Source: Psammoneis japonica (taxonomy: Eukaryota). Taken from it: a stretch of DNA of 64,000 nucleotides. Made by a program: the position numbers and the translations under genes. A model generated the notes under the pieces. The model saw only the letters and a list, made by a program, of their open reading frames with translations, searched no databases and had not been told where the DNA came from. This document shows, piece after piece, positions 7,000 through 56,901 of the stretch. Position 1 is the stretch's first letter. Each line of letters begins with the position of its first letter. The stretch is taken from the NCBI GenBank assembly GCA_008632985.1, contig QPGO01000187.1, positions 1 to 64,000 of the forward strand, given 5' to 3'.

Positions 7000-9900
7000 G
7001 TCTTGCTGAAACGAATGAAAAGATGCATCCAGGGACAGCCTCGGCGACGGAGGGCGACGACGACTCGCGATCGACAATGACCGTGTTCGCAGATGCGCCG
7101 TCGCGCGCGCAGAGCGTAAAATGATGGTCTGTCCTGGTGCATTTCGTGCTCGGCGATGACGGCGGCATGCAACACCGGTGCGTGGTGGCGGTTAGCGAAT
7201 CAATGGCAAAAGCCACGTTCGGAAGTGTGCGGTTTTGTCAATGCGAGAATGAGCATCATGATGATCATGAGGGCAACCCATCTTTGCCTGTGGGGATCGC
7301 TTTTGCCCCGCGCATCTTCTCGCCAAACCAGCGCCAGATTTTTTCTGTCACCTTGGTTTGACAAAAACACAATGCCGCCTTTTGGTGGGTGCTGCAACAC
7401 TCAACACAAATGGCAGCAGCAACAACAACAACACATGACAATGAGAAGTGCAGAGAGGAGGAGCTGAGCTTGGAAACTTCCTTCTTTGGTGATTTTCAGA
7501 CCAACCTGATGACAGCTTGAGAGCTGGGAGAGTGGGCTCTCACAGAGCCACCTCCTGTGCCAAAGCACCGGCAGCAGACACAGGGTTGGCAGCAATGGAT
7601 GAGGAGGCAGGCATGGATGAGGTGGCAGTCATGGGCATGAACTCCAGAATTGCACTGCTGCAGTGGTGTCAATGGCAATGGCACTGATGTGTCAGGTGTC
7701 AGACCCAACTGGGCAATTCAGCCAATGGGAACGGCAACAACTTTGCTTCAATGGTGGACAGGCACATGTGATGCAAGCCAGCAAGCACATGAACTGGGCC
7801 AGTGGGCACAGACATGGCAGAACTGGGTGTGGCAGCAAGGGTCATCAGGCCACGGGTGTGGTGGCCACACAGGAAGAGCAGAAGGACCAGGATGAGGGCA
7901 ATGACATGCAGCTGACATGCTGGGCATGGCAGATGTGGAAATGACAACAACAACAGGTGTGGCCATTGCATGGGGTGCATTGTTCCTGCAATTGACTCAC
8001 TGGGGTGTTGGCAGCAGCTTTGGCATGCAAACGCAGTTTTCTGTTTTTTTGCTGTTGAACTTGGTCGTGCCAACTAAACTCCACCCAAAACAAACTGAGC
8101 TGGAGCAGCATTGTTTCAAAGCATGGCATGTGGGCTGTTGGCCAAGCACAGGCAATGAGTGTGGCAACACCCAGACATTCATCATGGAATGAATGTGATG
8201 CCCGTGTGGTTGCTCATTGTGCAGGCACCAACTGACAAATGAGGTGTCCAATGTCTCAACCCATTCTTGGAATCACTTGAACCAGCAACCCAAGTGCCAG
8301 TGGTGAGATGTTGCACTGCATGAACAGACCCAAAGTTGATGAGGAATTGCTTGTCAGTTGCAGATCAAATGCCATGGTTTGGGGTGGACATGGATCACTC
8401 ACTCATTGGCCCAAATCAGTTGAGAGCATTTGTCGTGCCAGCACACAACAACCCTCATGACACTTGACATGGACTTGGCATCAAGGCAGACAAAGCACTC
8501 ATCCCCTTCAACGCCACAGGGATGATTGCATCTTTTGAGTCCAGTTTGCCAACTGACTGGGAAGAAAACAACTTGCCCATTGCCTTGCTTGCAGGTGACA
8601 CCTGAAACACTGCGGAGAGTTGGGGACATGAGCTTTCTGAATTGGGCTCTTGAACAGGCAGAGATGCAAGTCAGCAGCAGAGGAGATCACACTGACATTG
8701 CACCTTTGGATGTGCATTTTTGGGGCATGTGTTGGTGTCATTGGCAGCTTGTGCTGAGGATGACAAAAAGGCTCACAGGTTGCTTGAGACATTGGTGGCA
8801 CAAAATTCGATGAAATGAGAACCGTGAAAAAGTTGACAAAGCTGGCAGAGCTCTGTTTGCTGGCTTGAAGTCATGGCAGACAGTGGTCTGTCCTCAAGAA
8901 AGTTCCAAGATGATGCTAAAAACCCAGCTCTCCAGCAGATGTGAGTGTGTGCAAATTGTGCATGCAGTGGTGCAGGACTTGCCACCACAAATGTCCTTCA
9001 GCAAACATGGTGGGCTGGGAAGAAGAGACTTTTTCTTCTTTCCCTGCATGGTTCTGGACAACTCACTGCTGCGTTGCCATTTTTTCCTGTGCATTTTTCC
9101 ATGTCAGGCACAAACAACATGCTGGCATGCATGATTTGTCACACTTGAAAGTTGCCACTGCAGAAAAAAATTAACTTTTTCACAGTTGACAGCAGAGGAA
9201 CCTGGGTTGTCAACAGGAGGACAGCTTGTTTTGGCTCCAGAACTCTCATGTTGACAGGCATGTGCACAAATGCCATGGATGATGGGCCTGGACTTTCCAG
9301 CAGAAGAGCCTTTTGGCAAGGTGTTGACAAGAAGAAAATTGAATCATGCGGAAACCAAGCCTCTCTGTGGTGGCCAGGCAATGTCATTGCAACAACTGCA
9401 AGGTGGTTGAAGAGTGCAGTCTAGAGCTGGTGTGATCATTGTGTTGGGTCACATTTTGTGCCACAACAGAGCCAGAAGTGTGAAGAGACAGGCTCCAAAC
9501 ACTGCAAGAAGAAAAAAAAAGTGACTGACAAAACCATTGAGCTCAAGGTGCCATTGGCACCCTCAATTGTTGAGAAAGTCCCAACAGCTCATCAGCGTGT
9601 CACACAGCTCAACAAATGCATGACAGTGGTTTCTTGACTGGCATCAAGCACAAACAACCAGAAAAAGAACTGGAGCTGAAGACAACCCAGATGCCCAGCT
9701 CTGGCCCTCAATCATTGCTGGCAGTGCTGTCAGCACTGGGAGCCTTAGCTCTGCCATGCTGGTGTGCAGCTTGCCTGTGCATCATTGCATGCCGCACACC
9801 CCATGCACTCAGCAACAGCATGGGTGGTCTTGGCAAAGTTGTCCTTGCTGGCAGCAACATGCATGGCATCCTTCAGATTGCTGTGCACCTCCACAAACTT

Positions 9901-12780
9901 GGAAGCACCACCTCTGTGGTGGTTCTTGTTGTGCCCATTGTGCGGCATGTGGGTGGGTGATTGTTTGCATGCAGACAAAGGGGCTCATGCAAATGGGCCT
10001 GTTCATGACTCCATGTCCAGGTGGACAATGAGCTTCACAGGGACCACTTCTTGTCACCAAAGTGACAACCTGTTGCATTTTTTCTTTGGGCATTGAGCAG
10101 CAGCACCAATTGGCAAAAACTGTTTTTCTAAGCTCTGGTTGCAGCCCCAGTCACATGGCTTTAATTCAGTGTGCCAGATGTGATGGCAGCCATGAAGGAT
10201 GGGGCAGCCACATCTCTCAGTTTGCAATGAAAGCAACACTCTCATTTGCAAGCCATGTCTTCCATGGCAGCTGCTGCCTTGACGTCTTCACACTTGAGAT
10301 TGGAGGGGCCAGGTTGGGAGCAGTCAATGGTTTGGTTCAAGCAAGATCTAAGAAGCTGGTTGAACAGCACTTGCTCAATGGGATGCATGAGGAAGCCTTT
10401 GGGTGAGAGGAACCACATCAGCCTCAGCCTCTTTGGCTTCTTCTTTCTGTTCCACAAAAACATCAAATAATTTTAAAGCAGTGGACTTGGGCTTGGCTGC
10501 ATTGGTGTTAACACCCAGAGCAGAGCAGGCCATGTTGGCATCATCAACACTCAAGGTGAAAAAGGAATTTGCAGCAGGCTTGCAAGAAAGAGCCTCATCA
10601 TCACTGGCAACTTGTTTGTTTGTGTTGAGCTTTGGTCCCACCAACATTTTTTTCTTGACTTTGGCACAAAGGCAGTGACATCATCTTCATCACTGCCAAG
10701 GAAAGTGATGAGATTGTTGGGCAAGAGCCACCTGGAGTCATGTCCCACTTTAAAGAGTGTTGGCATTTACCACATGCATTTTTGGCAGTGGCCTTGTGAG
10801 GTGTGGGGCTGTGTCATCACTGCCACCAAAGCAAATGCTGCAAAAAAGAAGGAGAAGAAGGAATGTGCAGTAATTGAGGTGTGTCAACAAGCCACAGAAA
10901 AGCATTGCACACAAAACACAATGATGCTCACTGCCTGAAGGTCAAGGAGGAGATGCATCATGTTAACTGACATTTCCACCCCCTTGCTCACATGTGATGA
11001 CTTGAGTGCCAACGCCAAAGCCACATGTGACAAGCAGAAGTAAAACAAAGAAGGAAAAAATGGCTGAAAACTTGGGGCAACAATGGCAAATGTGCCATGT
11101 GTTCTTTCTCTGTGGAGCTGTTCCCAAGAAGAAGAGGAAGGAAAGGTTGCTCACAAAGCCACCAGTTCTTTGAGGCTGTCAGGCAACAAAGTCACGGCCA
11201 TTGGCCAGCACCATTTTGAGCTAGAAGAAACACACAGAAAGAGTTGCAAATTTGTTTGATGATGGAGCACATCTTGCAAAGACAACAAGATCTGCAAGAA
11301 GATGTGCAAATCAGGTTCAGATGCACACAAAAAAGGAAATGATGGATTGTTGCTGCACAGCATGAAGCTGGAGGCTCTCTCTCCTGGGAAACAAAAGCAT
11401 GCTTTGCATCTGACACTGTCCACCTCAAGGAGAAGCAAGGCCACAAACTTGACAAGACCTTGAAGGAGATGAAGGGCAAGCTTGGGAAAAAAAGGTGCTT
11501 GCGCCAAGGTGAGCAGTGTGGGACATGGGATCAGCCTGCTTGACAACTTTCAGGGAGGCTGATGTGAAGCTCACCCCCTCATTCAGCTGGCCAGGAGGAC
11601 AGAGCTGAATGAAGCAGCCAAAACATGCAGTTCTGCTTGGGATTGAAGAAGCAACATGATTTGTCTTGCACTTGGAAATTGAGAGCTGGTGGGCAGAAGC
11701 TCCCTGATGGTTGGAAAGCAAAGGCAAAGCAACAGGAGATGCAACAGGATTGTGCGCCCTTGCAGGATTGACAGGGTGCCTGATGAATTTGTGTCACTGT
11801 CCCTCCCGCGGCATTCTGCAAACCACTGGATGTGTTCAAACATGGCAAGAGCCCACAAGGCCAACATGGGATCTAGAAAGCACAACATTTGAGCCAGGGA
11901 AAGGAGAAGGAGTGGCTCACCTGCAATCAGGCATCACTTTCTCCAAGAAGAGCAACAAGTTGTGGCCATTTGTGATTTGGAAGGGTGTGCCAGTGAGTCT
12001 GCCACATGCAAGAAACACCACCACATTGTGTGCAAGACAGCTGGTTGCAAAAAGGAAGACAGGTTTGACAACAAGCACTCCTTTGAGACAAGAGTGCAGT
12101 GGCAGTGTCAACAATTGCCAAATCTTTGAGTGAGCTTGCAAATGATGTGTTGGGCTGTGTTGCCCTTCCTGGCATTGGGGGTCATTGATTCAGAGGGAAG
12201 GGAAAAAGGAGGGGCCGGCCCCACAGTCACACCCTTGCTCATGATGGGCACTCAAACCAGAGAGTTGAAAGACAGGGTGGCTCTGCTCCACAAGCTGCTC
12301 TAATGGCAAGAAGAATTGTTGCACCCAAAGGACATCCTCTTGACACACCTTGGTTGACAAAATGTGGGAGGCACCCTGTCAAGAAGATCATGTCCATGAG
12401 ATGAGAGAAAGCACACTGGAAGCCTCCCCTGTTGACACCCCCAGCAGCCCAGCTGCTCTGTCCAGGCAGCTCACTGCACAGTGGACAGTACAGGCCTGGG
12501 AAAAGGTCCCAGAGGAAGTTGTGTGCAAGCTCGTTTTGGTTGCTGGCTTGCAAAGATCCAACTGTTGAGAGCAGCCTGACCTGCACAGCCACTCTGCCAA
12601 GGCTGAAACAGCAGCAGAGTGCAGTGTGGTGGGCAAAGATGTGGTGACTGTATTCAAGCAGTTGGAGGATTTTGATGGAAGCAGCGTGGAGTGTGAGGAG
12701 GAGGATCAACTCTGCAGCATTCCTGCTTTGGCTCATTGGCAGAAAAATCGATCCTGCTGGGTTGTTTGCAGCTTACAGCA
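7000..12780. repeat. TpA/CpG-depleted decayed repeat domain
   Basis: TA almost absent. CG almost absent from ~7400 onward. Dense short Cys/His/Trp-rich, Tyr-free ORFs in all frames. Confidence 0.85.
11200..12720 (+). pseudogene. Degenerate pogo-type (Tc1/mariner, DDE_1) transposase
   Basis: Fragments KLWPFVIWKGVP (cf. KLPPFVIFKG) and SRQLTAQWTVQAWEKVPEEVV (pogo C-terminal WV..AW helix) in the expected order, broken by frameshifts. Confidence 0.6.
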
Positions 12781-12893
12781 CCGTACGACGTACAGCACAA
12801 GTGCATAAACTTCTTGACGACAACTTGTCACGTGTCACGATGAGACGCAGAGAGAATCATCAAGTGTAGTGGAAGAGCTAATAAAAAGCAACA

Positions 12894-26686: not shown

Positions 26687-26718
<32 letters not shown>

Positions 26719-33395: not shown

Positions 33396-33909
33396 GAGTG
33401 CAACAATGATGCGACTGCAAAAGTGTTTCTTTACCTTGGTGGATGAGAACCCGCAACCCCATCGTCAAAGCATCAAAGCCGCACCCGCACAGGTTGAGCT
33501 GATCGGCTGCAGCACCGGGCAGGCGAATCATGATTGAGTCGAGTGGTGAAACACGAACGGATCAGAACCCGAGACCCATGACCCATGCGGGTCGGCAAGA
33601 ACACTCCACTTTTACGGCCCGCAGCTGAGCATCCTGGGGGGCGTCTTTGGAAGTGAGATCGTCGAAGGCGGTCTGATCGCCAGTGCGTTTGGGGTTTTTT
33701 CCAGTGCAATTTGTACGCACAAGAAAACACGCACCGCAGGATCTGTCCAGAGGTCCCAAACACCCAATCGCACTGATTGACAGACTGTTTTAGCACAAAT
33801 TCTACGCAACTTTCTTCGACAGTCTCACTTCCAAAGACGTCCCCCAGTCCGGAATCAGGAATTTGAGAAATTCCGCGGACGTAACGGACCAGATTCCGAT
33901 GGGACACTA

Positions 33910-35662: not shown

Positions 35663-35803
35663 TACATAGTCCCTGTGACAAAAAAATGCCGGAATGAAGC
35701 CGGAAGAACCACACGCACAAAAACGCAGTTTCCTGTTATTTTGTCGTTGTCAAAGATCAAGTTAAGCAATAATACACCTCCCACAGTATAGGACGATGAT
35801 TCA

Positions 35804-39305: not shown

Positions 39306-39794
39306 CAAGCGGTGGTTCCTTGTTTCTCTACCTGGTAGTTGGCTGTGACGAACGCTCGGCCGATTTTGTGCTACTGTCCGTTTGATCGAACGCTCGATGG
39401 AATGCATACGGATGGATTGAGGAGTGCAACGATTGGAAGAATGCATTTCAGAACCGCCCGTCGCCGTCATGGTCGTCGCTTTTGAAAAGGCGATGGATCT
39501 TTGACACATGTTAACAATGTAGTAGTTCTAAATGCTGCTTCCATTGGATTCTCGCTACCTATTGTCGAGGCGGGAACATTCATCACCTGATGACTTTGCT
39601 GCAGAGCTTGCGCATGGAGCTAAATGCATGGTGTGTGAAAGTAGGAGCACCAGATCGCAAGTCGGGTGTTGCACCGGGGCGCGACAGAAATCGACAGTGG
39701 GATGTGTTCATGTATTTTTTTATTATGAAGAAAGCACGACTAAAGCGAATGAAGGCATGTGATGCTACCATAACCATACTCTGTCCTTGAATGA

Positions 39795-42064: not shown

Positions 42065-43790
42065 CCTCCCAGTTGGGAGTGACCCAAACAGCTCGTGATC
42101 GTCAGCCAAAAAACTGTTTTGCCACTTGCAGCACAACAATCATGGTGACTTTAGATGACACAGGTGAGTGCAATGGAGATGGGGCCCTCCTGCTCTCTTG
42201 CCACATTTTCGACAACAAGCGCCGTGACTGTCATGCATGGCTGCACTGCATTTCTTTCTGCATCTCTGCCACATGCATTCGGACAATCAACCCAACAAGT
42301 GTAAGAAAGAAAAAATGCAAGACAAAAAGCAGAAGAGAAGTCAAGGTGCAAGGCCAAAAACAAAGGACAGAAGAGGCTTTTCGCGCACTTTCACCCAAGG
42401 CCAAGATCGATCTGGATTTTTTGGTCTCTGATGCCCGTGCAGATTTGACTGAGTTTGTTGCATGTGCCAAGTCTCATGGTGACAAGCTTCCCATGACAGA
42501 CTCAGATTCACCATGGGCAAAGTCTCAGGGTGGTGCTTCTCCACAACACCATCGAATGGCCTTTTTCAGGTGCTGACAGTGTGCAGCCAGGGCTTGGCTT
42601 CCTGTGGTGTGGTCTGCCCGTCATGTGCCACACTGCATTTTTGCTGTTGCATGCTGTCACATCTCATGGCATGCATCACAGTCTGGGGTGGCATGTCTGG
42701 GCAGCTGTTGTCCAAACAACCACATCTTGGAATTGCGCTGGAGCGGTTTTTCAATCAGCGCAAATGGGAAATTCTTCAGAAAAATTCAGCGAACAATGGA
42801 CAGACTCTGCTTTTTTCCATGAGTTGAAGCTGCAGTGACAAGAACCCAATGTGCAAATGGTGGAAGTTGTGGTGCCGACCAACAGAAACAAAGCTGTTGC
42901 TGAGAAACATGCACCAACAAGATGTGTGCAATGCACGCGCAACAACCTCTGTCGACCTGTCTTCTGTTTGTGCTCTGCTGCTGTGGCTTTGACACACTGG
43001 TTCTTGTGGAGGTCTGAGACAACAAGGAAAAGGGAAAACTTGGCTTCAGAAACAGCACAGCAGTCTCAGCATTGTGAGACTCAGATCCCTGCACAAACAG
43101 CCACACAAGATGGCCATCACATTTGGCAAGGGAACAAGCTCTGCTGTGGCATCTGTGGCGAAGTTGGCTCTCTCCACAAATGCGTGCCTTGGCAAATGGA
43201 GAAAGGAATGTGCGTGCGAACCCACCAGTGGAAGCAAATGTGGAACAGCTGCAACTGCAAGAAGAACACATGCCCCAAGCATCCTTGCCATTGAAGCACA
43301 TTCAAGATTGCTTGAGATCTTTGAGTGTGCTCCGCCTTGGGGCTCCTCGAGTCTTTTTCTTTCGAAGAAGTGTGCAGCTGTGTTTTTTTTTTGTGGTGCG
43401 GCCAATCACAAAACAGTTGCTGCACTTGCATGAAAACAGAAATCCTGTTGGTGGGGTCATGTTTTTGTTTGACATATGTTGTGAACTTTTACAACAGACT
43501 CTCTCGACTCTTTCTTTCCAATGACTTTTTTGCCAAAATGCTGGTGTGTCGCAGCTTGCAACTTTTGACTGCTCTCTTTCTTTCTGGGCTGCAGTCAACC
43601 ATTGCCACGGCAGTTTTCTGTCTTGATGACACAGCAAAGAGAAGGCCACCAGTGGTGCGTGCTGCTGCTCTTGCTGCAAGAGCAAGGCTGTCATGGTCAA
43701 ATGGCGTCAAATGCCGAACGAACTGTTGTTTCCGGGGGCTTTGAATGTCCTGACGCAGCAGGTCAGACGAGAAAGATCGCGATCTTTTCT
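42065..43790. repeat. TpA-depleted repeat; 42130-42860 has an inverted homologue at ~47020-47480 and ~49015-49185
   Basis: ALSPKAKIDLDFLVSDARADLTEFVACAKSHGDKLP (+) versus ALSPKAKTSVDFCISDACADLRKFVACTKSRGDKFP (-). Shared GGACAATCAACCCAA...TGCAAGACAAAA. Confidence 0.85.
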
Positions 43791-46153: not shown

Positions 46154-49100
46154 GGTCTTCACAATATCGATGCAAAGGAACAAAGCAGATTTTGTGACCA
46201 GTCGAGAAGTCGGCCAAGATGAAATTGTGAGCAAAGAATGAAGCGAACCAAATTGCGTTGCGTCTTTTAAAACAAGCAAGAAGATTATTTGAATTTTTGA
46301 AGTTGGTGGCATTTTTCGTGACAACGTAAGACAGCACTGTGGACAGAAGCTCATTTGAGTTTTATCCATAGATATAAATGCCGATAGATTCAATAATTCG
46401 ATAGCTCATCCATGCTATTGAGCAGTTAATGCATTCATTCCAGCAGAAATTTGTTCTACCACATTCGCTTGTTCATTTAAAATCCTAACGAATGGATAGT
46501 TTTGAACTACATTCCAAATTTCTAAGTAAAAATAAAATTTCTCATATGTCCTTCATGTGCATAGATGAAATAATTATTCTTTCAACGGTTCCCCAACGCA
46601 GTTCTTTTGCTTCTTCGATTGAAGTGGCCAAGACACTTTTCAATTTTCTCTCAAGGCCATGAAAAGACTTGAAGGGGTAGCATGAGGTGAAAAATGCCCG
46701 ATTTTTTTTTTTCTGCGCGCATTTTGGTGAAAATGATGGTGAAGAATTTGCCGTGCTCACTCGCAGCTCATGGAGCTCTGTGCGCAACGCACTGAGCTTG
46801 ACTGCGGGACGTTGGCTGCAAAGTTCTGCACACACTTGATGGGGTGCATGTGGACCTCACTTCTTGAAAATGGCGGCATCTTGCATTGGAGCACAGAGCC
46901 TGCATTGGCTGGTGCGGCCATTGTCCCGAGACATGTGGTTGTGCACCATGCACGCCAGCAACACACTGAGGATCGATGACCTTGGCAGCATGTCTGGGCA
47001 GCTGCTGCCCAAACAAATTTGGCCCATTTGTGCACTGGGTTTTTGTTGACACAGCTTCAACTTATAAAAAAACCGCACAGCCTGTCTGCTGTTCACCAAA
47101 ATTTTCCCATTCGCGCTGATTGAAAAACCACTCCACTCCAGTGCAAGCACGTGATTGTGTTCAGACAGAGCAGCTGCTCTCAAATGTGCCCCCAAGACTG
47201 TGACGCACACCATGACATGCAACATTGTGCATTGGCAAAAATGCAAACCACACAGAAGCCAAGCCCTGGCCGTGCAGCACCAGCTCCTCAAAAAGCCATT
47301 TGACAGTGTTGGGCGGAGACTTGGAAAAACATCCTAAGATTCTGCCAGTTGTGAGTCTGAGTTGCCACGGGAAACTTGTCGCCACGGGACTTGGTGCAAG
47401 CAACAAACTTGCGCAAGTCTGCGCAAGCATCAGAGATGCAAAAATCCACACTGGTCTTGGCCTTGGGTGAGAGTGCAAAAAAGCATTCTGCCCCCCCCCC
47501 CCCCCTTGTCTTCTGCCTCACAGTTGGACGCTTGGTTTGGTTTCACCCATTTGGATGGCCAGGGTGCCAAGGGGGAGTTGCCTTTCCCTTTTGGGGAACA
47601 CCCAGGAAATTGGGATGATTTTGTGGGAAGGAACTCCTGAAAGAGGTCAGGGGAGGGGGAACAAAAAATGAGTGGATTGCGGGAATTTAGGATTGTTTTG
47701 ATTTAGGCTCATGTGCTTTTAATCTTGTGTGGTCGAATCCAGATCAGCTCCAGCACATCATGCGGCACTCTGGATTTGGAGCTCATTGTTGCCATTGCAT
47801 CATGTGGATGAATCTGCTTCTTTCACTGCTGCTGTTGATGCCGCTGCTGTTCTCCATCTCCAAAAGCTCCACATTGACAGAGGCCCATTGCGCGGTTTGT
47901 CAGATCATCTCGACCAAGCACTCATTGATCATCCATGGCACCAAGGTTGCTGGTTCACAAAAATGGCATGAGGAGTGTGACTTGAACCAGAGCCAAGCAC
48001 ATGACAAAGGCGCTTTGCTTGCAGTGCCATGATCTGGCAAAATTTTGGGTGGAAGGAGAGAGCGGATGAGTGAGAGCAACGCCTTTGAAGAAAAGATTAA
48101 AACAATCACACTCACCTGCACGGGACCAATCTTAGCTGCATCATGAAAAAACAGTGTGCCACAGTGCTTGGCTCCATGTGGACAGGAAGCTTGGACATCG
48201 CTTGGCATGGTTCTGGGAGATCTTGGCACCGCAGGTCTTGACGTGCATCCTCTTGATCTTTCAGAGGTGGGCAACAGCTTTCATCATGTTGAGCCCTGTG
48301 CATGACTGCTTGCACCAGCCACACATCCAGCTGTGTCCTCAGATGTGAGCTTGTCATCCCAGACACTTGTGATTTCTGGGAGCTCCTTTTTCTCTGTGAC
48401 AGCAGCGACATCGCTGTCGACACTGATGCAGGCATCATCCTGCTGCTCTTCATCACTCATGTGCCAACATGCATTTTATGAGAGAAAGTGAAACCCTGCA
48501 ATGTGAGTGGCAAAGATGATGGTGTGCGAAACTGAACAAAAAAGATGTGGGTGAGCATGCGAAGCAGAAGCATGATTGAAAAGACACCAGACGCACATCT
48601 CAACAAAAAACATGCCTGCACCGGACACGCAGCATCAAAAAGAAAGGTGTGGCATCAATGTGACAATGAACATGTTCTGAACCAACATGGTGCAGCAACA
48701 AAAAAGGCACTGCAGCTGCAGAGAAGCCAGCACAGCTGTCAATGTGTTGAGTGAACGGTGCTCCAAACTGCTGAGTGCAATGCCCTGGAATCTGCAGGTG
48801 ATGCACCATGATGTCAGTTCACAGAGGGGAAGCATGGGGAATTGCCAATGTGCAATTTTTTGTTCATGTGTTGAACATGTGTGCAATGAAGCATGATTCA
48901 TGGTGATTCCCTGAGAACTCACACTTCCTGCAGAAAACAGGGGAAAAATGTGGCAACCCCGGGGAGTTTTTGGGAATCCCACGGCAAAACCAAACTGAGT
49001 CTTGACAACTTTTTTCTGCTGTTTTGTCTTGCATCTTTTTTTCTTGCATTTGGGTTGATTGTCCAAACACACCTGGCAGAGACAGAGAAAGAAACACAGT

Positions 49101-49479
49101 GCAGCCATGCACGACAATCATTGCTCATCTTGCATGACATGGACGCACGCAGACACCATGGAAGAGTGACTTTTGGCAATGATTTTCAAAATCTCTTTGG
49201 CCCCAGTCTGTTCAAAGTTTTGCATTGTGCGTGGGTTTTGTCCATGGGGCTGAGCACCCTGCTTCATTGGTGTCTGAACTAAATGTCGGTGGGTCGAAAT
49301 GTGTCAAGCCAAGTCATTCTTCTGAAGTTGCTGACAAAGAGGAAAGTCAACATTTTCCATTCAAACAACATAAAAAAATGTGTGATTAAACATGAAAACA
49401 GCAACGGAATGACAATTGCACTTGAGTTGAATGGAGAAAATGCCGGGACAAAAAATTTTGTCCCGCGGGTGTGGAGAAA

Positions 49480-49810
49480 GTTAACAAGGACAGTTGCGCA
49501 CATGACCTTGGTGTTTGTTTTGCTTTGAAGAGGGCAGTCATTCCATTGGAGTGACCATTGTTGAGTCAGGAAACCTTCAACAACTTCAAAGAATGAGTGT
49601 GCTCAACATGCTCTTGAACCAAGTGAGTGGAGAGACACAATCATTCAAGGACAGAGAACGGTTGTGGTTGCATCACATGCCTTCATCCACTTTGTTCATG
49701 CTTTCTTCACAATGAAAAAATTCACATGAACACACTCCACTGTCAATTTCCACAATGCCCCGGTGCAACACCTGACTTGCGATCTGGTGCTCCTGCTTTC
49801 GCACACCGTG
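49480..49810 (+). pseudogene. Inverted, mutated copy of the sulfatase 3' end and downstream sequence (39625-39955)
   Basis: FEEGSHSIGVTIVESGNLQQLQRMSVLNMLLNQVSGET versus the gene's FEEGDYSIGMTIVQSGNLQQLQRMNVFNLLLNKVSGET. The downstream non-coding sequence also aligns. Confidence 0.9.
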
Positions 49811-50199
49811 CCCCACTTGCTTTTCCTCAAGGAGGAGCTGGAGCAACTTTTGCACTTGTGGTTGTCATGATGGAGATTTGGTTTGCAAATCTTGTGACGC
49901 ACCACATTGATGGTGGCAACAGATCAATGTCTGGCCAGTGTGACTGTGCTGGCACTTTGATCAATGTCAACCAACACCTGGAGATCCTGCCCCCTTTCTG
50001 ACAACTGACACTTCTTCTCAAAAAATGCTGGCAGCTTTGAAAACAGTGTCAGCGACTCTTGTGTTTCTTTCCAACAAAACAGACAAAACCTTGGGCCATC
50101 ATTTGAGCAGGAAAAATGGCAAATCAATGGATGGGAATGTTGGCAAGACGTTGTGCCTGTTGCTCCTCCACATGCAATCTCAGATTGATGTCAACATGC

Positions 50200-51420
50200 T
50201 AGAGCAATGCCAACTGTTGGCAAGCACATTTGTTCCACCTCATGCATGTTCAATTTCATCACTGGCCATTCTTCACACAAGACAAAAGAGAATGGATTAA
50301 AGCTCAAAATTCTGCCATGCTTCTGACCACATTGCAACACACAGCCCTTTTTGCCAATTGATTGGTGTGTCACCAAAAACTGCCCCCAGCATCTGGCAGA
50401 AAATGTGGTCCATTGTCGGAGATGAACTGGTCAAAACAAGTGCACCATTGACTCCCCTGAAATCAAGAAACTCATGCAATGAGACAAGGGTTGAAACAGT
50501 TTGGCATGGAGGTGGCATTGGCATTGATGTCAGGTTTCACACTCAATTTCACATGGACTCAAACTGGTGCAAGCTGCTGCATTCATGCAGATCTCATCTT
50601 TTTCTCCCCTGTTTTCCTCCTTTTTTACAAAATGTGAGCTGAGCACAGATCATTTTCATTCAGGACAAATGAGGCGGTCAAGACACTGTCATTGTCTCAT
50701 CCACAGCTTCCCAAAACAATGCTGTGGCTGCCATGCTTTTCACCCCATGCTCCTTGTCATGACTGCAGTGCATGTGCAGTGTCTTGTTTCTTGATGCTTC
50801 TGCACTGATGCAGACTCTGATCATCTCTCATTTTTGGAAGCGCTGCAATGCAAACACTCCCAAACCAGCCTTCTTTTGACAGGAAAGCTCGACTTCAAAG
50901 TGGCCCCTCCAGAGATCTCGGGACTGAAGCAGCAGCAAAAAGTGGCAAGTCAACCTGAAGTCTGCCTCACTCCAGATCATCCTTGAAGCTGCACATTCCT
51001 TGCAGCTCAATGCGACAGTGCACCCTCTCATGAAGTCTGATGCATGAGGCCTCTTCATGCTGAAGGTGCGTGTGCCGTGGTGCCAACGACTGGTGGCTCC
51101 AGCTGCCTGGCTGAGGTCACCTGCAAACACTGCATTGATGCCTCTGTGTGCTTTTTTCAAGTTTGCTTTCAATGTTGCCAGATTGCTGTGCAGTTTTTTT
51201 AGTCTCTTTTGCACGTGAATGACACCTCATCAACAACCAACGGATGGCAGATGTTGCTCCAGCCACTTTGAACTTGTTTTTTTGCAGCTTCTTTTTTCTG
51301 GTGTGAATGTGCAACTGTGTGGACAGTGTCACCTTTGAGGATGGTGGCATCAACTCCAGTCATGGCAGTGACAGCAATGGTGCATGTCGTGAACGGTTGC
51401 CACAAACGAAAGAGAGCTGC
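50200..51420 (-). pseudogene. Degenerate Pif1-like helicase (Helitron-type remnant)
   Basis: IAVTAMTGVDATILKGDTVH (motif Ia/Ib), LVVDEVSF (Walker B) and GINAVFAGDLSQ (motif III) in the correct order. Confidence 0.7.
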
Positions 51421-51571
51421 ATTGTCTCTGCCACTCAAAAACACAAGATGGAAACTGCTGTGGATTGATTGCAGCATCACAACTGTTGTGTGACGGTCAA
51501 CGAGTGCCAATTTTGCGGGGAAATCCATGATGCGTGTTGTGCGCATTGAAATAAAGTGACAACGTCTTTCG

Positions 51572-54500
51572 GGCAATCGTCCAGCTGCGCAGGCAGCTCT
51601 TCATGAACTGTGTGGGAAATGTGCTGGAACTTGTGTAGAATCCCACAACGACACAATTCCATTTCTGTGACGACAAGCAGAAATGAACGGTCCAATGTGG
51701 TGCAAGTTGCACAACGACACGAAAGAGGGAATCCTCTTCATTTCCTTCATTCCACTCAAATGATCCCGATTTGGCATGTCGCACCGTAAGAAACGGCCAT
51801 GCACATTGCACTTTGATGTGTTTCGGCATGGCAAACATCATGGGGCAGACGTGTCTTGCATGTGTGATCTCTTTCTGTCCCTGTCACAAAGAGTTTGACG
51901 CACTGGTTTGGTTTCCTGGGGGGCTTTGGTTGCAACACACGGTGCAAACGGTTGCGTGCATCGACTGGTGCCTCGATTGCTGTGCGGTGCGGGTGACATC
52001 TGAATGGTCGACAACGCCGCTGAGGTAAGTTCTTTCTGTGATTTTTCATTTTATGTCGTTTTCCCATTCACTAAAGATCATTGTTGCGTTTTGTTGCAGC
52101 TTGAAAAGTGGATGCATCGTCTCGTACGGTCGATTGTGGCATCTGTTTTTATGGCATGTTTTTCAAGTCGTTGGCGCCGCCAGAGCGTGTGTGTCTAGGA
52201 GCTTTGTGCTCCATCTCACTCTGCATCCTTTGGCGCACCTGTTGTGCATGTTAAGACAGACTTGTGATGCTCTTGACATCCTTCTTTGGGTCTTGTTCGG
52301 CGCATGATGACGGCATGTCATTTTTTGGGCGTGTCAATTTCTCAAAAGTGTGTGCCGTGGAAACAAAACGATGCGATGGAGCCTCGGGGACACTTGTGAT
52401 GGTGGCATTTGTCACACAGACTTCACATGCTCCAAAGAAGATAATCACATGAGTGCATTGTGATTGATTGAGTTTTAGAGTCGTTTTGACGAAAGTCATG
52501 CACCTCATGGGCCCATTTTTTTTTGCATCTCGTCCATGCAAGGTGGCAGCATTGGCAGCGCAGTCTGTAGACTCGCCAGCACCATTTTTTATGTCTGATC
52601 TTGAAATGGTTGCTTTTGATGTAATTGTTGGCTCAGGTGGCATTGCTGTGGCAAGGCAGTTGGCATGGGAGTCGGTGGTGCTGGATCAGCTGGTTGGCGC
52701 AGGGCGTGTGTGGTGTTGGAGCAGCTGTGTGTGTGTGTGAAGGGGGGATCAATTCAAAAACTCGGGATCAATTGTAACACCAAAAAGAGGAGGAAAGGGG
52801 GAGAACAAAATGTGGTGATCACAGGGCTGCTGTGCATCTGTCGTCGTTGAGTTCTCCGCCACCAATTCAGGAAAATGGACCGCAGCTCAAAGGGTCATGG
52901 GGAACTCCAATCATGGAATGGACAAATTGAAAGGGTGAAAATGTAGAGCTCATTGCACTTCAAAATGTGACATTGGTTTTACTGCAAAGAAGGCGTGCAT
53001 TTGCACTCGGCTGATTTTTACACGGTGAAGTGCGGCAAAAGCGAGAAAAATGCTGTTTCACGTTCTCTCTGACTTGAGGGTCAGTTGACATGGTCGATGC
53101 CTCATCAGAGATGTGAGACTTCTGCTGTTGACATTGGTCACTGTTGACATCATAAAAGCCGCAACAACATTCCAAGAAATGCAAACGAGTGCATCGTACA
53201 AAAAATTTGAAAATTTTCAGTCGTCACTGTTCGTCTGGCCATCGCACGTGCGCTCTGAACCCACCACGCCCTCTCTCTCCCCTCTCCTTTTCCTCTTCCT
53301 TTTTTCATAAACTCGGAGCTACCTGTGTGACCGGACATGTGCCCTTTCGGGCAATCGTCCAGCTGCGCAGGCAGCTCTTCATAAACTGTGTGGGAAATGC
53401 ACCGGAACTTGTGTGGAATCCCACAACAACACAATTCCATTTCCATGGCGACAAGCAGAAATGAACGGTCCAATGTGGCACAAGTTGTGCAATGACACGA
53501 AAGAGGGAATCCTCTTCATTTCCTTCATTCCACTCAAATGATCCCGATTTGGCATGTCGCACCGTATGAAACGGCCATGCACATTGCACTTTGGTGTGTC
53601 TCGGCATGGCAAACATCGTGGGGCAGACGCATTTTGCATGTGTGATCTCTTTCTTTCCCTGTCATAAAGAGTTTGACACACTGGTTTGGTTTCCTGGGGG
53701 GCTTTGGTTGCGACACACGGTGCAAACGGTTGCGTGCATCGACTCGTGCCTTGATCACTGCGCGGCACGGGTGACATCTGAATGGTCGACAACGCCGCCG
53801 AGGTGGGTTCTTTCTGTGTTTTCTCATTTTATGTCGTTTTGTTGTTCACCAAAGATCATTGTTGCGTTTTGTCACAGCTTGAAAAGTGGATGCATCGTCT
53901 CGTACGGTTGATTGTGGCATCTGTTTTTATGGCATGTTTTTCAAGTCGTTGGCGCCGCCAGAGCGCATCCGTTTAGGAGCTTTGTGCTCCATCCCACCAT
54001 GCATCCTTTGGCGCACCTGTTGTGCATGTTAAGACAGACTTGTGACGCTCTTGACATCCTTCTTGGGGTCTTGGTCGGCGCATGATGACGGCATGTCATT
54101 TTTTGGGCGTGTCAATTTCTCAAAAGCATGTGCCGCGGAAACAAAACGACGCGATGGAGCCTCGGGGACACTTGTGATGGTGGCATTTGTCACACAGACT
54201 TCACATGCTCCAAAGAAGACAATCACATGAGTGCATTGTAATTGATTGAGTTTTAGAGTCGTTTTGATGAAAGTCGCACACCTCATGGGCCTTTTTTTTT
54301 GCGTCTCGTTCATGCAAGGTGGCAGCATTGGCAGCGCAGTCTGTAGACTTGCCAGCACCATTTTTTATGTCTGATCTTGAAATGGTTGCTTTTGATGTAA
54401 TTGTTGGCTCAGGTGGCATTGCTGTGGCAAGGCAGTTGGCATGGGAGTCGGTGGTGCCGGATCAGCTGGTTGGCGCAGGGCATGTGTGGTGTTGGAGCAG

Positions 54501-56901
54501 CTGTGTGTGTGTGAAGGGGGATCAATTCAAAAACTCGGGATCAATTGCAACACCAAAAAGAGGAGGAAAGGGGGAGAACAAAATGTGATGATCACAGGGC
54601 TGCTGTGCATCTGTCATCGCTGAGCTCTCCGTCACCAGCTCAGGAAAATGGGTTGCAGCTCAAAGGGTCATGGGAACTCCAATCATGGAACAGACAAATT
54701 GAAAGGACAAAAATGTAGAGCTCATTGTGCTTCAAAATGCAACCTTGGTTTTACTGCAAAGAAGGCGTGCATTTGCACTCGGCTGATTTTTACACGGTGA
54801 AGTGCGGCAAAAGCGAGAAAAATGCTGTTTCACGTTCTCTCTGACTTGAGGGTCAGTTGACATGGTTGATGCCTCATCAGACATGTGAGACTTCTGCCAT
54901 TGACATTGGTCACTGTTGACATCATAAAAGCCACAACAACATTCCAAGAAATGCAAACGAGTGCATCGCACAAAAAATTTGAAAATTTTCAGTCGTCACC
55001 ATGTGTCTGGCCATCGCCCGTGCGCTCTGAACCTGTTGTGCCCTCTCTCTCCCCTCTCCTTTTCCTCTTCCTTTTTTTCATAAACTCGGAGCTGCCTGCG
55101 TGACCGGACACATGCCCTTTCAGGCAATCGTCCAGCTGCGCAGGCAGCTCTTCATAAACTTTGCAGGAAGTGCACTGGAACTTGTGCAGAATCCTGTGAT
55201 GACACAATTCCATTTCTACAAAGACAAGCAGAAATGAACGGTCCAATGTGGCACAAGTTGTGTGACGACACGAAAGAGGGAATCCTCTTCATTTCCTTCA
55301 TTCCACTCAAATGATCCCGATTTGGCATGTCGCGCCATAAGAAATGGCCATGCACACTGCACTTTGATGTGTCTCAGCATGGCAAACATTGTGGGGTGGA
55401 CGCATTTTGCATGTGTGATCTCTTTCCATCCCTGTCACAAAGAGTTTGACACACTGGTTTGGTTTCCTGGGGGGCTTTGGTTGTGACACATGGTGCAAAC
55501 GGTTGCGTGCATTGACTCGTGCCTTGATTGCTGCATGGCACGGGCAACATCTGAGTGGCCGACAATGCCGCCGAGGTGGGTTCTTTCTGTGTTTTCTCAT
55601 TTTGTGTCGTTTTCCCATTCACTGAAGATCATTGTTGCATTTTGTTGCAGCTTGAAAAGTGGATGCATCATCTCGCATGGTTGATTGTGGCATCTGTTTT
55701 TATGGCATGTTTTTCAAGTCATTGGCACCGCCAGAGCGTGTCCGTTTAGGAGCTTTATGCTCCATCCCACTCTGCATCCTTTGGTGCACCTGTTGTGCAT
55801 GTTAAGACAGACTTGCGACGCTCTTGACATCCTTCTTTGGGTCTTGTTCGGCGCATGATGACGGCATGTCATTTTTTGGGCATGTCAATTTCTCAAAAGC
55901 ACATGCCGCGGAAACAAAACGATGCGATGGAGCCTCGGGGATGCTTGTGACGGTGGCATTTGTCACACAGACTTCACATGCTCCAAAGAAGATGATCACA
56001 TGAGTGCATTGTGATTGATTGAGTTTTAGAGTCGTTTTGACGAAAGTCGCACACCTCGCGGGCCTTTTTTTTTTGCGTCTTGTTCATGCAAGGTGGCAGC
56101 ATTGGCAGCGCAGTCTGTAGACTCACCAGCACCATTTTTTATTTCTGATCTTGAAATGGTTGCTTTTGATGTAATTGTTGGCTCAGGTGGCGTTGCTGTG
56201 GCGAGGCAGTTGGCATGGGAGTCGGTGGTGCTGGATCAGCTGGTTGGCGCAGGGCGTGTGTGGTGTTGGAGCAGCTGTGTGTGTGTGAAGGGGGGATCAA
56301 TTCAAAAACTCGGGATCAATTGCAACACCAAAAAGAGGAGGAAAGGGGGAGAACAAAATGTGATGGTCACAGGGCTGCTGTGCATCTGTCGTCGCTGAGT
56401 TCTCCTTCGCCAATTCAGGAAAATGGATTGTAGCTCAAAGGGTCATGGGGAATTCTGATCATGGAATAGACAAATTGAAAGGATAAAAATGCAGAGCTCA
56501 TTACACTTCAAAATGTAACATTGGTTTTACTGCAAAGAAGGCGTGCATTTGCACTCGGCTGATTTTTACACGGTGAAGTGCGGCAAAAGCGAGAAAAATG
56601 CTGTTTCACGTTCTCTCCGACTTGAGGGTCAGTTGACATGGTCGATACCTTATTAGAGATGTGAGACTTCTACTATTGACATCGGTCACTGTTGACATCA
56701 TAAAAGCCGCAACAACATTCCAAGAAATACAAACGAGTGCATTGTACGAAAAATTTGAAAATTTTCATTCGTCACTATTCGTCTGGCCATCGTACGTGCG
56801 CTCTGAACCTATGTATTACGCCCTCTCTCTCCCCTCTCCTTTTCCTCTTCCTTTTTTTCATCAACTCGGAGCTACAGTACCTACGTGACCGGACATATGC
56901 C
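51572..56901. mobile_element. Head-to-tail trimer of a ~1.77-kb non-autonomous TIR element (51572-53343, 53350-55116, 55123-56901)
   Basis: Three alignable units with imperfect TIRs (GGCA...TGCC). The 8-bp direct repeat GTCTTTCG flanks the array (51564-51571, 56902-56909). Six-bp spacers CTTTCG and CTTTCA lie between units. Confidence 0.85.

What the first reader, a model, noticed from the sequence alone, without database searches (positions are those of the whole stretch)
7000..56400. Repeat-domain-restricted TpA->TpG/CpA hypermutation: a RIP-like genome-defence process acting on A:T pairs
Seen: six blocks (~7.0-12.8, 22.5-27.2, 29.4-30.5, 32.0-35.3, 42.1-43.8, 46.7-56.4 kb) nearly lack TA and are flooded with TG/CA, while intervening genes and spacers have ordinary TA. 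The blocks hold unrelated sequences (pogo, Harbinger, Helitron-type helicase, a TIR trimer, a host-gene fragment), so this is not one family's composition. Known: CpG loss by 5mC deamination is expected in diatom transposons (DNMT5-type CG methylation), and fungal RIP converts CpA to TpA, creating TA. The process here runs the opposite way (A>G at TpA on either strand). Inference: a DNA-level mutator targets silenced chromatin and destroys Tyr codons and TIRs. Candidate mechanisms are a TA-preferring adenine deaminase of the TadA/ADAT fold, a mutagenic base modification at TpA, or Pol eta-type WA>WG error-prone repair patches as in somatic hypermutation. No responsible enzyme is visible in this window.
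Basis: partly seen in the sequence, partly recalled or inferred. Interest (0 to 1): 0.93.

Follow-up and report, generated by a model that had tools for sequence, protein, structure and literature searches.

The report
TpA-erasing hypermutation in diatom transposon islands
In this diatom, intergenic islands of dead transposons have had nearly every TA (and many CG) dinucleotides converted to TG or CA where they sit, the same mutation signature recently caught in the act in an unrelated alga, so it looks like a wider DNA-editing process aimed at silenced foreign DNA.

Summary
Seven stretches (24,038 bp) hold 126 TA where about 931 are expected from the window's background (o/e 0.079 against 0.584). 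CG is also low (0.357 against 0.927). The TG+CA surplus (about 1,691) matches the two deficits (about 1,610).

Direction and place are shown by four polarised comparisons:
- A copied fragment of a host sulfatase gene.
- Three tandem copies that resolve the same ancestral TA as TA, TG or CA.
- The last 510 bp of copy 3, which lies outside the domain and keeps its TAs.
- A PIF/Harbinger transposase whose 7 Tyr-consensus columns now read 3 Cys, 3 His, 1 Trp.

Contigs of a separate read set reproduce the blocks at single-copy depth, so a basecalling artefact is unlikely.

The window is from a diatom. The same TpA>TpG/CpA signature was shown in mutation-accumulation lines of Bigelowiella natans (bioRxiv 10.64898/2026.01.13.699255), so this is a new member of a very recently described kind, not a new category.

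New here: saturation, co-occurring CpG decay, sharp domain edges that cut through a transposon and a repeat, no dependence on homology, and an RTAY-over-YTAR context preference. The enzyme is unknown. Pol eta-type WA mutagenesis is disfavoured.

The parts
7075..12634 (.). Block 1: TA- and CG-depleted island between the FG-GAP gene and the lipase gene; content unidentified
   Evidence: TA o/e 0.05-0.15 and CG o/e 0.0-0.22. No Pfam domain in its ORFs.
22785..26481 (.). Block 2: TA- and CG-depleted island; content unidentified, with only weak transposase-like leads
   Evidence: TA o/e 0.05-0.10 and CG o/e 0.04-0.15. No sequence homologues for the 252-aa ORF. The language-model search gives only weak RAG1/Plavaka/Transposase_21-type leads, below the recognition threshold.
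29757..30345 (.). Block 3: short TA-depleted stretch
   Evidence: 4 TA in 589 bp, o/e 0.12; CG o/e 0.48.
30574..31663 (.). 183-bp satellite array (about 6 copies) that is not depleted: a repeat outside the mutated domain
   Evidence: TA o/e 0.88-0.89 and CG about 1.0 in windows 30501-31500.
31762..32140 (-). 3' part of the PIF/Harbinger transposase gene, unmutated, with its Tyr codons kept
   Evidence: DDE_Tnp_4 match, E 8.8e-07, profile positions 71-142, at about 31909-32139. TA is dense up to 32135.
32141..35154 (.). Block 4: TA-depleted island holding the 5' two thirds of the same Harbinger element
   Evidence: 10 TA in 3,014 bp (o/e 0.05); CG o/e 0.51.
32169..33464 (-). Degraded PIF/Harbinger transposase reading frame (432 codons, 1 Tyr)
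   Evidence: 572 homologues at E<=0.001. Of the 30 members of alignment A1, 18 carry DDE_Tnp_4. The 7 Tyr-consensus columns read 3 Cys, 3 His, 1 Trp and 0 Tyr.
39626..39952 (.). Source copy: 3' end and downstream flank of the host sulfatase gene (ORFs 39795-40913 and 40778-41677, minus strand), unmutated
   Evidence: Pfam Sulfatase, E 7.6e-46. 12 TA and 14 CG in the aligned 333 columns.
42180..43669 (.). Block 5: TA-depleted island, same repeat family as part of block 6
   Evidence: 3 TA in 1,490 bp. Inverted similarity to 47024-47476 and 49014-49120, with 12 aligned CA-against-TG steps.
46713..51922 (.). Block 6: TA-depleted island
   Evidence: 20 TA in 5,210 bp (o/e 0.06); CG o/e 0.35. Contigs of run X1 reproduce 4,044 nt of blocks 5 and 6 with 3 differences.
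49481..49811 (.). Inverted, mutated copy of the sulfatase gene fragment inside block 6
   Evidence: 85% identical to 39626-39952. Of the 12 host TA, 9 became CA/TG. Of the 14 host CG, 11 became TG/CA. No site runs from host TG/CA to block TA.
51566..56909 (.). Tandem trimer of a 1,775-bp unit, partly depleted; the domain ends inside copy 3 at about 56400
   Evidence: Site patterns (CA,TA,TG) 12 and (CA,CG,TG) 5. Copy 3's tail keeps 24 TA where copies 1 and 2 show 19 TG, 16 CA and 8 TA.

Best explanation
Intergenic islands of dead mobile DNA in this diatom nuclear genome have undergone, where they now sit, a context-specific hypermutation. It turns A:T into G:C at TpA (TA to TG or CA, either strand with equal chance). 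Ordinary CpG-to-TpG/CpA decay is superimposed.

Shown:
- The direction of change.
- That it happened in place, after duplication, and independently in each copy.
- That it is confined to domains with sharp edges. These stop 250-900 bp short of neighbouring genes, and two of them cut through a transposon gene and a tandem repeat.
- That it does not need a homologous partner.
- That TA is lost faster than CG and at least about 30 times faster than other sites.
- That the tetranucleotide matters: RTAY goes first, while YTAR and TA next to A-runs last longest.

Inferred:
- The domains are silenced chromatin.
- The process is the one measured directly in Bigelowiella natans.
- The agent is an enzyme working on DNA. 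The most likely candidate, at about 0.35, is an adenine deaminase of the ADAT2/TadA kind, whose natural tRNA target A34 always follows U33.
- The CpG loss comes from 5-methylcytosine deamination.

The confidence given below is for the process as described. The identity of the enzyme is much less certain.
For: 1. Mass balance: a TA deficit of about 805 plus a CG deficit of about 805, against a TG+CA surplus of about 1,691.
2. Host sulfatase fragment against its copy in block 6: 9 of 12 TA became CA/TG, 11 of 14 CG became TG/CA, and no site reverses for TA.
3. Trimer: 12 sites read (CA,TA,TG), 5 read (CA,CG,TG) and 22 read CA in some copies and TG in others.
4. In the last 510 bp, copy 3 keeps 24 TA. 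At those sites copies 1 and 2 show 19 TG, 16 CA and 8 TA in 48 comparisons. Of the 16 sites mutated in both copies, 8 agree and 8 disagree, as expected for independent events.
5. Rates in that tail: TA bases differ in 37 of 88 comparisons, CG bases in 13 of 90, and other bases in 21 of 788.
6. Tyr test against 29 homologues: 0 of 7 Tyr columns kept (3 Cys, 3 His, 1 Trp), while Phe is kept in 11 of 13, Leu in 12 of 16 and Cys in 4 of 4. Tyr makes up 0.2% of the ORF against 5.0% of the homologues.
7. Context of the 126 surviving TA against 1,311 background TA: RTAY 9 against 380, YTAR 51 against 223, chi-square P = 3e-13.
8. TG and CA are equal in number and not in runs (runs-test z between -1.7 and 2.2).
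9. Run X1 contigs at word depth about 58-64, the same as over flanking genes, match the blocks. For example, a 2,142-nt contig over 49446-51587 has 1 difference.
10. The same signature, TpA only and A:T>G:C, was measured de novo in B. natans lines (231 of 302 mutations in two viral inserts), together with 124 TpA-depleted clusters (Results and Discussion read).
11. The window is from a diatom: named ECM29 homologues are Thalassiosira, Amphora and Bacillariaceae at 47-53% identity and Triparma at 42%.
Against: - No methylation, chromatin or usable expression data exist for this window, so 'silenced chromatin' is inference.
- No whole genome is held, so genome-wide extent and candidate enzymes could not be examined.
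- The library type of run X1 is not on record, and it may come from the same sample as the assembly. It is therefore not a fully independent confirmation.
- The only diatom with mutation-accumulation data, Phaeodactylum tricornutum, shows a GC>AT bias and no TpA hypermutation in the passages read. The process is thus not general to diatoms, or it sits in uncallable repeats.
- Whether A or T is the base attacked cannot be told from double-stranded outcomes.
- The protection of ATAA while ATAT, ATAC and ATAG are nearly gone does not fit simple additive single-strand neighbour effects. That fits a reader of double-stranded DNA at least as well as a single-strand deaminase.
- Only one block has an identified transposon.
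Confidence: 0.8

Rival explanations
1. TpA in these domains carries a heritable base modification on the palindromic TA step, for example an oxidised thymine of the 5-hydroxymethyl/5-formyluracil kind made by a JBP/TET-type dioxygenase, or a modified adenine. The TA-to-CA/TG change is then the collateral mutability of that epigenetic mark, just as CpG decay is collateral to 5-methylcytosine. It would not be a dedicated mutator.
For: - Both self-complementary YpR steps (CG and TA) decay in the same domains into the same products.
- Outcomes are strand-symmetric and unclustered.
- The tetranucleotide effect is non-additive between strands, as expected for an enzyme that reads double-stranded DNA.
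- From recall, not from a call: 5-formyluracil mispairs with G, and dinoflagellate 5-hydroxymethyluracil is enriched at TpA.
Against: - No report of 5-hydroxymethyluracil in diatoms was found. The 15 papers holding both terms concern dinoflagellates in the 10 listed.
- No such enzyme is in the window. The 2OG-Fe(II) oxygenase at 56922-57971 matches PF03171, not the TET/JBP family.
- TA loss is saturated even where CG is barely reduced (32141-35154: TA 0.05, CG 0.51), so the two marks would have to be set independently.
Confidence: 0.25
2. Error-prone repair patches: Pol eta-type synthesis recruited to heterochromatin writes A>G at WA motifs, as in phase 2 of somatic hypermutation.
For: The A:T>G:C transition bias, and the preference for a T before the mutated A, overlap with the WA motif (motif recalled).
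Against: - AA/TT are not depleted in the blocks (o/e 1.25/1.23 against 1.14/1.19).
- AG/CT are not enriched (0.95/0.97 against 1.03/0.92).
- Near-complete saturation of TA, with other sites diverging only 2-3% in the same segment, is not what patch synthesis would leave.
Confidence: 0.04
3. Artefact: modified bases at CG and TA in these domains were systematically miscalled during long-read basecalling or polishing, and the real DNA still has TA and CG.
For: Palindromic sites modified on both strands would be miscalled as TG on one strand and CA on the other. That reproduces the pattern, including random TG/CA choices between repeat copies.
Against: - De novo contigs of run X1 (657,387 contigs, 140.7 Mb, word depth about 58-64 at single copy) carry the same TA-free sequence. 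There are 3 differences in 4,044 nt of blocks 5 and 6.
- X1 differs from the window by a few SNPs and indels elsewhere, so it is not a copy of the assembly.
- The Harbinger frame also has a frameshift and ordinary substitutions.
- The same signature was measured with Illumina in B. natans.
Confidence: 0.03
4. The elements arrived already TA-poor, either as an intrinsic composition of the families or by transfer from a TA-poor donor. Nothing happened in this genome.
For: Most block content has no identifiable relatives.
Against: - A fragment of this genome's own sulfatase gene is mutated inside a block, while its source is not.
- Adjacent tandem copies differ by independent TA>TG and TA>CA events.
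- One Harbinger gene is half mutated and half intact.
- Homologous transposases have 5.0% Tyr.
Confidence: 0.02

Closest known systems
TpA-specific hypermutation of integrated giant-virus and virophage DNA in Bigelowiella natans (Mettrop et al., bioRxiv 10.64898/2026.01.13.699255; outline, Results and Discussion read, supplements closed)
   Same: - TpA>TpG/CpA only, on either strand.
- Confined to particular regions of foreign or mobile DNA.
- Long-term signature of TpA depletion with CpA+TpG gain in clusters.
- Clusters enriched for DDE transposase and reverse-transcriptase domains and for unannotatable ORFs.
- ADAT2-type adenine deaminase proposed as the agent.
   Different: - A different supergroup branch (diatom, Stramenopila, against chlorarachniophyte, Rhizaria).
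- Here the loss is near saturation (o/e 0.03-0.12, against Rho 0.45 for their viral insert).
- It is joined here by CpG decay.
- Targets here are transposon islands, a host-gene fragment and a tandem repeat, not viral inserts.
- The rate was not measured directly here.
- The RTAY/YTAR context effect and the edges internal to elements are not reported in the text read.
Repeat-induced point mutation (RIP) of Neurospora and other fungi
   Same: Regional, saturating transition mutagenesis that ruins mobile elements and leaves a dinucleotide signature.
   Different: - RIP changes C to T, mainly at CpA, and so creates TpA. Here TpA is destroyed.
- RIP mutates both members of a duplicated pair and is triggered by homology. 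Here the source copy of a duplicated fragment and one of three tandem copies are spared.
- Mutations of one RIP round run on one strand. No strand runs are seen here.
CpG decay by deamination of 5-methylcytosine in methylated transposons (diatom DNMT5-type CG methylation; PMC9998398, passages read)
   Same: CG>TG/CA in transposon-rich regions. This accounts for the CG half of the signal.
   Different: It cannot touch TA. TA loss is faster and more complete than CG loss in the same DNA.
ADAR and APOBEC editing of viral and repeat nucleic acids in animals
   Same: Deaminase-driven hypermutation used against foreign sequences. ADAR prefers U before the edited A (as quoted in the preprint).
   Different: - ADAR acts on double-stranded RNA. 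Here a DNA transposon, a gene fragment and adjacent tandem copies were changed in place.
- The 3' neighbour favoured here is T/C and the least favoured is A, not the G recalled for ADAR.
- APOBEC changes C, not A.

Membership tests
TpA hypermutation as described in Bigelowiella natans | Changes are A:T>G:C transitions that fall on TpA, giving TpG or CpA | tested here: met
   Host fragment: 9 of 12 TA became CA/TG. Copy-3 tail: 35 of 48 comparisons are TG/CA. Tyr columns read Cys or His in 6 of 7. CpG transitions occur as well, which the preprint does not report.
TpA hypermutation as described in Bigelowiella natans | Confined to discrete regions of foreign or mobile DNA, with the rest of the genome ordinary | tested here: met
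   Seven stretches with sharp edges, and flanking genes at TA o/e about 0.5-0.6. One stretch holds a Harbinger transposase. The content of the others is unidentified.
TpA hypermutation as described in Bigelowiella natans | Directly measured de novo rate about 1,000-fold above background in some lines | not testable with these tools
   No mutation-accumulation data. The indirect estimate here is at least about 30-fold over other sites in the same 510 bp.
TpA hypermutation as described in Bigelowiella natans | Same enzyme or pathway | not testable with these tools
   The enzyme is unknown in both organisms, and no genome is held for this window.
Fungal RIP | C>T at CpA, raising TpA | tested here: not met
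   TpA o/e is 0.079 in the blocks, and CpA/TpG are raised, not lowered.
Fungal RIP | Triggered by sequence duplication; all copies hit | tested here: not met
   The source copy 39626-39952 is intact. Copy 3's tail and the 183-bp satellite are spared.
5-methylcytosine deamination (CpG decay) | CG>TG/CA in methylated DNA | tested here: inconclusive
   The change itself is seen: 11 of 14 host CG became TG/CA and CG o/e is 0.357. Methylation itself could not be examined.
Pol eta WA>WG mutagenesis | A mutated after A as well as after T | tested here: not met
   AA/TT o/e 1.25/1.23 in blocks against 1.14/1.19 in background; AG/CT not raised.
ADAR-type RNA editing fixed by reverse transcription | Passage through an RNA copy | tested here: not met
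   Adjacent tandem copies and a DNA transposon were changed in place, with a domain edge inside the element.
PIF/Harbinger transposon (content of block 4) | DDE_Tnp_4 transposase | tested here: met
   PF13359 at E 8.8e-07 on 31762-32421. 572 homologues of the upstream frame. 18 of the 30 members of alignment A1 carry PF13359. Terminal repeats and target duplication were not examined.

The most novel reading that the evidence does not exclude
Diatoms and chlorarachniophytes share an old, chromatin-guided DNA-editing defence. It reads the double-stranded tetranucleotide RTAY and deaminates adenine (or oxidises thymine) at TpA in silenced mobile DNA, working beside cytosine methylation. If so, A:T-directed genome editing of selfish DNA is a widespread eukaryotic system, on a par with RIP and APOBEC.
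Probability: 0.35. Interest if true: 0.88.

Novelty: new member of a known kind. Interest (0 to 1): 0.66.

Why it matters
A mutator aimed at A:T pairs in selfish DNA was unknown until a 2026 preprint on a single rhizarian alga. Finding the same signature, saturated, in a diatom suggests that it is widespread at least in the SAR lineages. It also gives a second, independent system in which to look for the enzyme.

The details seen here narrow the search. Targeting is by domain and not by homology. The edges stop short of promoters and can cut through an element. RTAY is preferred and TA next to A-runs is protected. The process is independent of the degree of CpG decay.

Practical consequences:
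- The loss of TAA and TAG stops fills these islands with spurious open frames (8.1 ORFs of 70 aa or more per kb, against 5.2 in background), which will be predicted as orphan genes.
- Tyr-free, His/Cys-rich 'proteins' in databases may mark the process in other organisms (P0288 and P0289).
- Transposon dating by divergence will be badly inflated.

Tried and rejected
- **Whole genome:** not held, so there is no genome-wide profile, no copy-against-consensus spectrum and no search for deaminases.
- **Pfam on block ORFs:** 219 of 222 ORFs of 70 aa or more were scanned; the three at 6900-7237 that overlap the FG-GAP frame were left out. Only DDE_Tnp_4 was found. The 50 longest at E<=1 gave nothing transposon-like. 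pogo and Helitron remain unconfirmed.
- **Block 2:** the 252-aa ORF has no homologue. The language-model search of the opposite-strand ORF gave only weak transposase-like leads, with recognition 1833, below 2300.
- **Relatives in other DNA:** Single-protein scans of metagenome contigs with P0288 and with the window's frame found no locus.
- **RNA:** no RNA holder is listed for the stretch. Run X2 of the same sample covers only gene parts of 41000-60999 and not the blocks, but its kind is not on record, so nothing is concluded on expression.
- **Taxon:** sulfatase homologues gave no taxon.
- **Strand-coordinated mutation runs:** none.
- **Nucleosome-scale spacing of surviving TA:** none.
- **Earlier findings of this scan:** nothing relevant.
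- **Literature:** no paper holds TpA, CpA, TpG and diatom together. Two hold diatom, transposable elements, dinucleotide and TpA, and neither is on this subject by title and abstract. Eight hold diatom with RIP, of which 6 are listed; the one whose passages I read (PMC9998398) discusses only DNMT4 and RID relatedness.
- **Supplements:** the bioRxiv supplements of the B. natans preprint are closed, so its per-site table could not be checked for flanking-base preferences.

Full report
**1. Observation**

One-kilobase windows show that TA observed/expected falls from 0.5-0.8 to 0.00-0.15 in discrete stretches. In the same stretches TG and CA rise to 1.6-2.2.

Segmentation on TA density places the stretches at 7075-12634, 22785-26481, 29757-30345, 32141-35154, 42180-43669 and 46713-51922. 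A weaker stretch over a tandem trimer runs to about 56400.

| Measure | Blocks (24,038 bp) | Background (32,356 bp) |
|---|---|---|
| TA count (o/e) | 126 (0.079) | 1,311 (0.584) |
| CG count (o/e) | 504 (0.357) | 1,675 (0.927) |

The chance of so few TA is 3e-242.

The books balance. About 805 TA and about 805 CG are missing, and about 1,691 extra TG+CA are present. G+C hardly moves (48.5% against 47.3%), because the two conversions cancel.

Edges are sharp. Outside a block, TA recurs every 10-100 bp. Inside, gaps reach 1,252 bp (33908-35160) and 1,173 bp (42302-43475).

TA loss is near saturation everywhere (o/e 0.03-0.12). CG loss ranges from 0.06 to 0.51. The two losses are therefore separable.

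**2. Is the sequence right?**

No whole genome is held. One public run of the same organism, X1, holds 79% of the sampled words of 46700-56600.

Its own contigs lie on blocks 5 and 6 at word depth 58-72 for most pieces (39.6 for one), close to the depth over the neighbouring genes (59). They show 0-1 differences per piece: 482, 383, 474, 563 and 2,142 nt with 0, 1, 0, 1 and 1 differences.

The library type is not on record, and the run may come from the sample behind the assembly. However, 657,387 short contigs at about 60-fold word depth are what accurate reads give. A basecalling artefact from modified DNA is therefore unlikely, at about 0.03.

Seven single-copy differences between X1 and the window were checked, six inside blocks and one (43765) about 100 bp past the end of block 5. 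Four are CG in X1 against TG/CA in the window. Two are TA in the window against CA in X1. One is something else. The numbers are small, but they fit processes that are still running.

**3. Direction and place of the change**

*a. Sulfatase fragment.* The 3' end of the host sulfatase gene (39626-39952; Pfam Sulfatase at E 7.6e-46 on the adjoining frame) has an inverted copy, 85% identical, inside block 6 (49481-49811).
- Of the 12 TA in the host copy, the block copy has CA at 6, TG at 3, TA at 1 and a transversion at 2.
- Of the 14 CG, 11 are TG/CA.
- No site has TA in the block copy and TG/CA in the host copy. Three sites have CG in the block copy and TG/CA in the host copy.

*b. Tandem trimer.* Across the three copies of the 1,775-bp repeat (51566-56909), 12 sites read CA, TA and TG in the three copies, and 5 read CA, CG and TG. 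Another 22 read CA in some copies and TG in others. Only an ancestral TA or CG that was resolved separately in each copy explains this.

*c. Tail of copy 3.* The domain ends inside copy 3. Its last 510 bp, just upstream of the next gene (ORF from 56922), keep 24 TA.
- At those sites copies 1 and 2 show 19 TG, 16 CA, 8 TA and 5 other or gapped states in 48 comparisons.
- Where both copies are mutated (16 sites), they agree 8 times and disagree 8 times. That is the 1:1 ratio expected of independent events.
- In this segment TA bases differ in 37 of 88 comparisons, CG bases in 13 of 90 and all other bases in 21 of 788.
- After correcting for saturation, TA is lost at least about 30 times faster than other sites, and several times faster than CG.

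*d. Harbinger transposase.* Block 4 holds a 432-codon frame (32169-33464, minus strand).
- It has 572 homologues at E<=0.001. In the 30-sequence alignment A1 (this frame plus 29 homologues), 18 members carry the PIF/Harbinger domain DDE_Tnp_4.
- At the 7 columns where most homologues have Tyr, the window has 3 Cys, 3 His, 1 Trp and no Tyr.
- By contrast, Phe is kept at 11 of 13 columns, Leu at 12 of 16, Gly at 14 of 19 and Cys at 4 of 4.
- Tyr makes up 0.2% of the frame against 5.0% in the homologues.
- TAY>TGY and TAY>CAY are exactly the predicted single steps.

**4. What defines a target**

*Not element boundaries.* The same Harbinger gene continues, after a frameshift, into 31762-32140. There TA is dense, Tyr codons survive, and Pfam still recognises DDE_Tnp_4 (profile positions 71-142 at about 31909-32139). 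The edge at about 32140 therefore lies inside the transposase domain.

*Not repetition or homology.*
- The adjacent 183-bp satellite (30574-31663) has TA o/e 0.88.
- The tail of copy 3 is spared.
- The source copy of the sulfatase fragment is intact.

*Position relative to genes.* The domains fill intergenic space and stop 250-900 bp from flanking ORFs: 12634 to 12885, 35154 to 35792, 41677 to 42180, 46405 to 46713 and 56400 to 56922.

This is what a chromatin domain bounded by active promoters would give. Chromatin itself was not observable here, so this reading is inference.

**5. Clues to the mechanism**

- TG and CA products are equal in number and are not in runs. This is unlike one round of RIP or of APOBEC/ADAR editing, although repeated rounds would blur any runs.
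- AA/TT are not depleted and AG/CT are not raised. This speaks against WA-directed Pol eta synthesis.
- The surviving TA are far from random:
  - RTAY makes up 9 of 126 survivors against 380 of 1,311 background TA.
  - YTAR makes up 51 against 223.
  - ATAC, ATAG and ATAT are almost gone (relative survival 0.06, 0.06 and 0.24). TTAA, CTAA and CTAG persist (2.8, 2.4 and 1.8).
  - A is enriched at the three positions after a surviving TA.
  - Chi-square P = 3e-13.
- ATAA survives (1.45) while ATAT, ATAC and ATAG do not. Additive neighbour effects on two independently attacked strands do not produce this. It hints that the agent reads the double-stranded site, or that A-tracts are shielded.
- In the polarised events, R-TA-R contexts give CA 30 times and TG 18 times. 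This is a weak trend towards TAY over TAR.
- Double-stranded outcomes cannot tell A>G from T>C.

I rank the possibilities as follows:
- **Enzymatic adenine deamination in DNA** by an ADAT2/TadA-like protein, about 0.35. From general knowledge, not from a call here: these enzymes' natural target A34 always follows U33, and the bacterial target reads UAC.
- **A mutagenic modification of T or A at the palindromic TA step**, about 0.25.
- **Other agents**, the remainder.

CpG loss is most simply 5-methylcytosine deamination. Diatoms methylate transposon CG through DNMT5, and many carry RID-related DNMT4 enzymes of unknown function (PMC9998398, passages read).

**6. Comparison with what is known**

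A full-text search found a 2026 preprint (bioRxiv 10.64898/2026.01.13.699255; I read the outline, Results and Discussion; its supplements are closed). It reports the following for Bigelowiella natans:
- In mutation-accumulation lines, 231 of 302 nuclear point mutations fell in two integrated viral regions.
- Nearly all were A>G or T>C, and all of those were on TpA.
- The rate was about 1,000-fold above background, and only in some lines.
- The genome also has 124 TpA-depleted, CpA+TpG-enriched clusters, enriched for DDE transposase and reverse-transcriptase domains.
- An ADAT2 homologue is proposed as the agent.

The window is not from that organism. Named homologues of its ECM29 gene are diatoms (Thalassiosira, Amphora, Bacillariaceae, 47-53% identity) and Triparma (42%).

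I found no paper that describes this signature in diatoms. The Phaeodactylum mutation-accumulation study reports a GC>AT bias and no TpA effect in the passages read.

The finding is therefore a new member of a kind described only months ago. It extends the process to a second major lineage. It adds saturation, coupling with CpG decay, domain-not-homology targeting and an extended sequence context.

**7. Verdict**

The claims of repeat restriction and of novelty need correcting, and Pol eta is disfavoured.
- Confidence that this is a real, in-place, domain-targeted TpA>TpG/CpA process is about 0.8. The enzyme is unknown.
- Interest is 0.66. The process is striking and mechanistically open, and here it is unusually clean, but it is no longer unprecedented.

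Noticed in passing
window blocks 7075-12634, 22785-26481, 32141-35154, 42180-43669, 46713-51922: CpGs that survive inside the blocks are clustered. Their pair distances peak near 150-210, 330-360 and 510-570 bp (z up to 7), which the background lacks. This may be nucleosome-scale phasing of CpG methylation or decay. Surviving TA show no such spacing.
   Followed up: partly
window 4512-7199 (minus strand, FG-GAP repeat gene): TA o/e climbs from 0.15-0.27 at the gene's 5' end, which abuts block 1, to 0.76 at its 3' end. NTA codons are almost absent from the first 1,500 nt, while CpG stays normal. This may be spill-over of the TA process into synonymous sites of a live gene. Other flanking genes show no clear gradient.
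   Followed up: partly
proteins P0288 and P0289 (public predicted proteins, source unknown): Among the 150 best Harbinger-like hits, P0288 has 0% Tyr and 13.8% His+Cys, and P0289 has 1.2% Tyr. Both show Cys/His at the family's conserved Tyr columns. The same process has probably acted on elements in other sequenced DNA. Their source could not be looked up.
   Followed up: partly
window 30574-31663: An array of about six 183-bp units (93% identical between neighbours) has normal TA and CG and sits between two depleted stretches, next to the unmutated end of the Harbinger gene.
   Followed up: no
window 56922-57971 (plus strand): A 2OG-Fe(II) oxygenase gene (PF03171, E 6.6e-08) starts 13 bp after the end of the trimer and about 520 bp after the domain edge. 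It is not of the TET/JBP family by Pfam, so there is no evident link to the mutation process.
   Followed up: no
window blocks as a whole: Loss of TAA and TAG (168 in all, against 1,164 TGA, both strands) leaves 8.1 stop-free frames of 70 aa or more per kb, against 5.2 in background. Gene finders will call orphan genes here.
   Followed up: yes
window 16620-19001 (minus strand): A 793-codon frame with internal repeats at offsets of about 560-1,200 bp (the longest aligned pair at 681 bp), no Pfam match and no Tyr codon in 2,100 nt. TA o/e is 0.12-0.5 with normal CpG. This is probably a low-complexity host protein and not part of the phenomenon.
   Followed up: no
window 51566-56909, run X1: X1 contigs join across one or two units of the trimer (53324 to 56882, 54074 to 55893), and word depth there reaches 400-800 against 58 at single copy. 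The unit is therefore multi-copy in the genome, or the array length varies.
   Followed up: no
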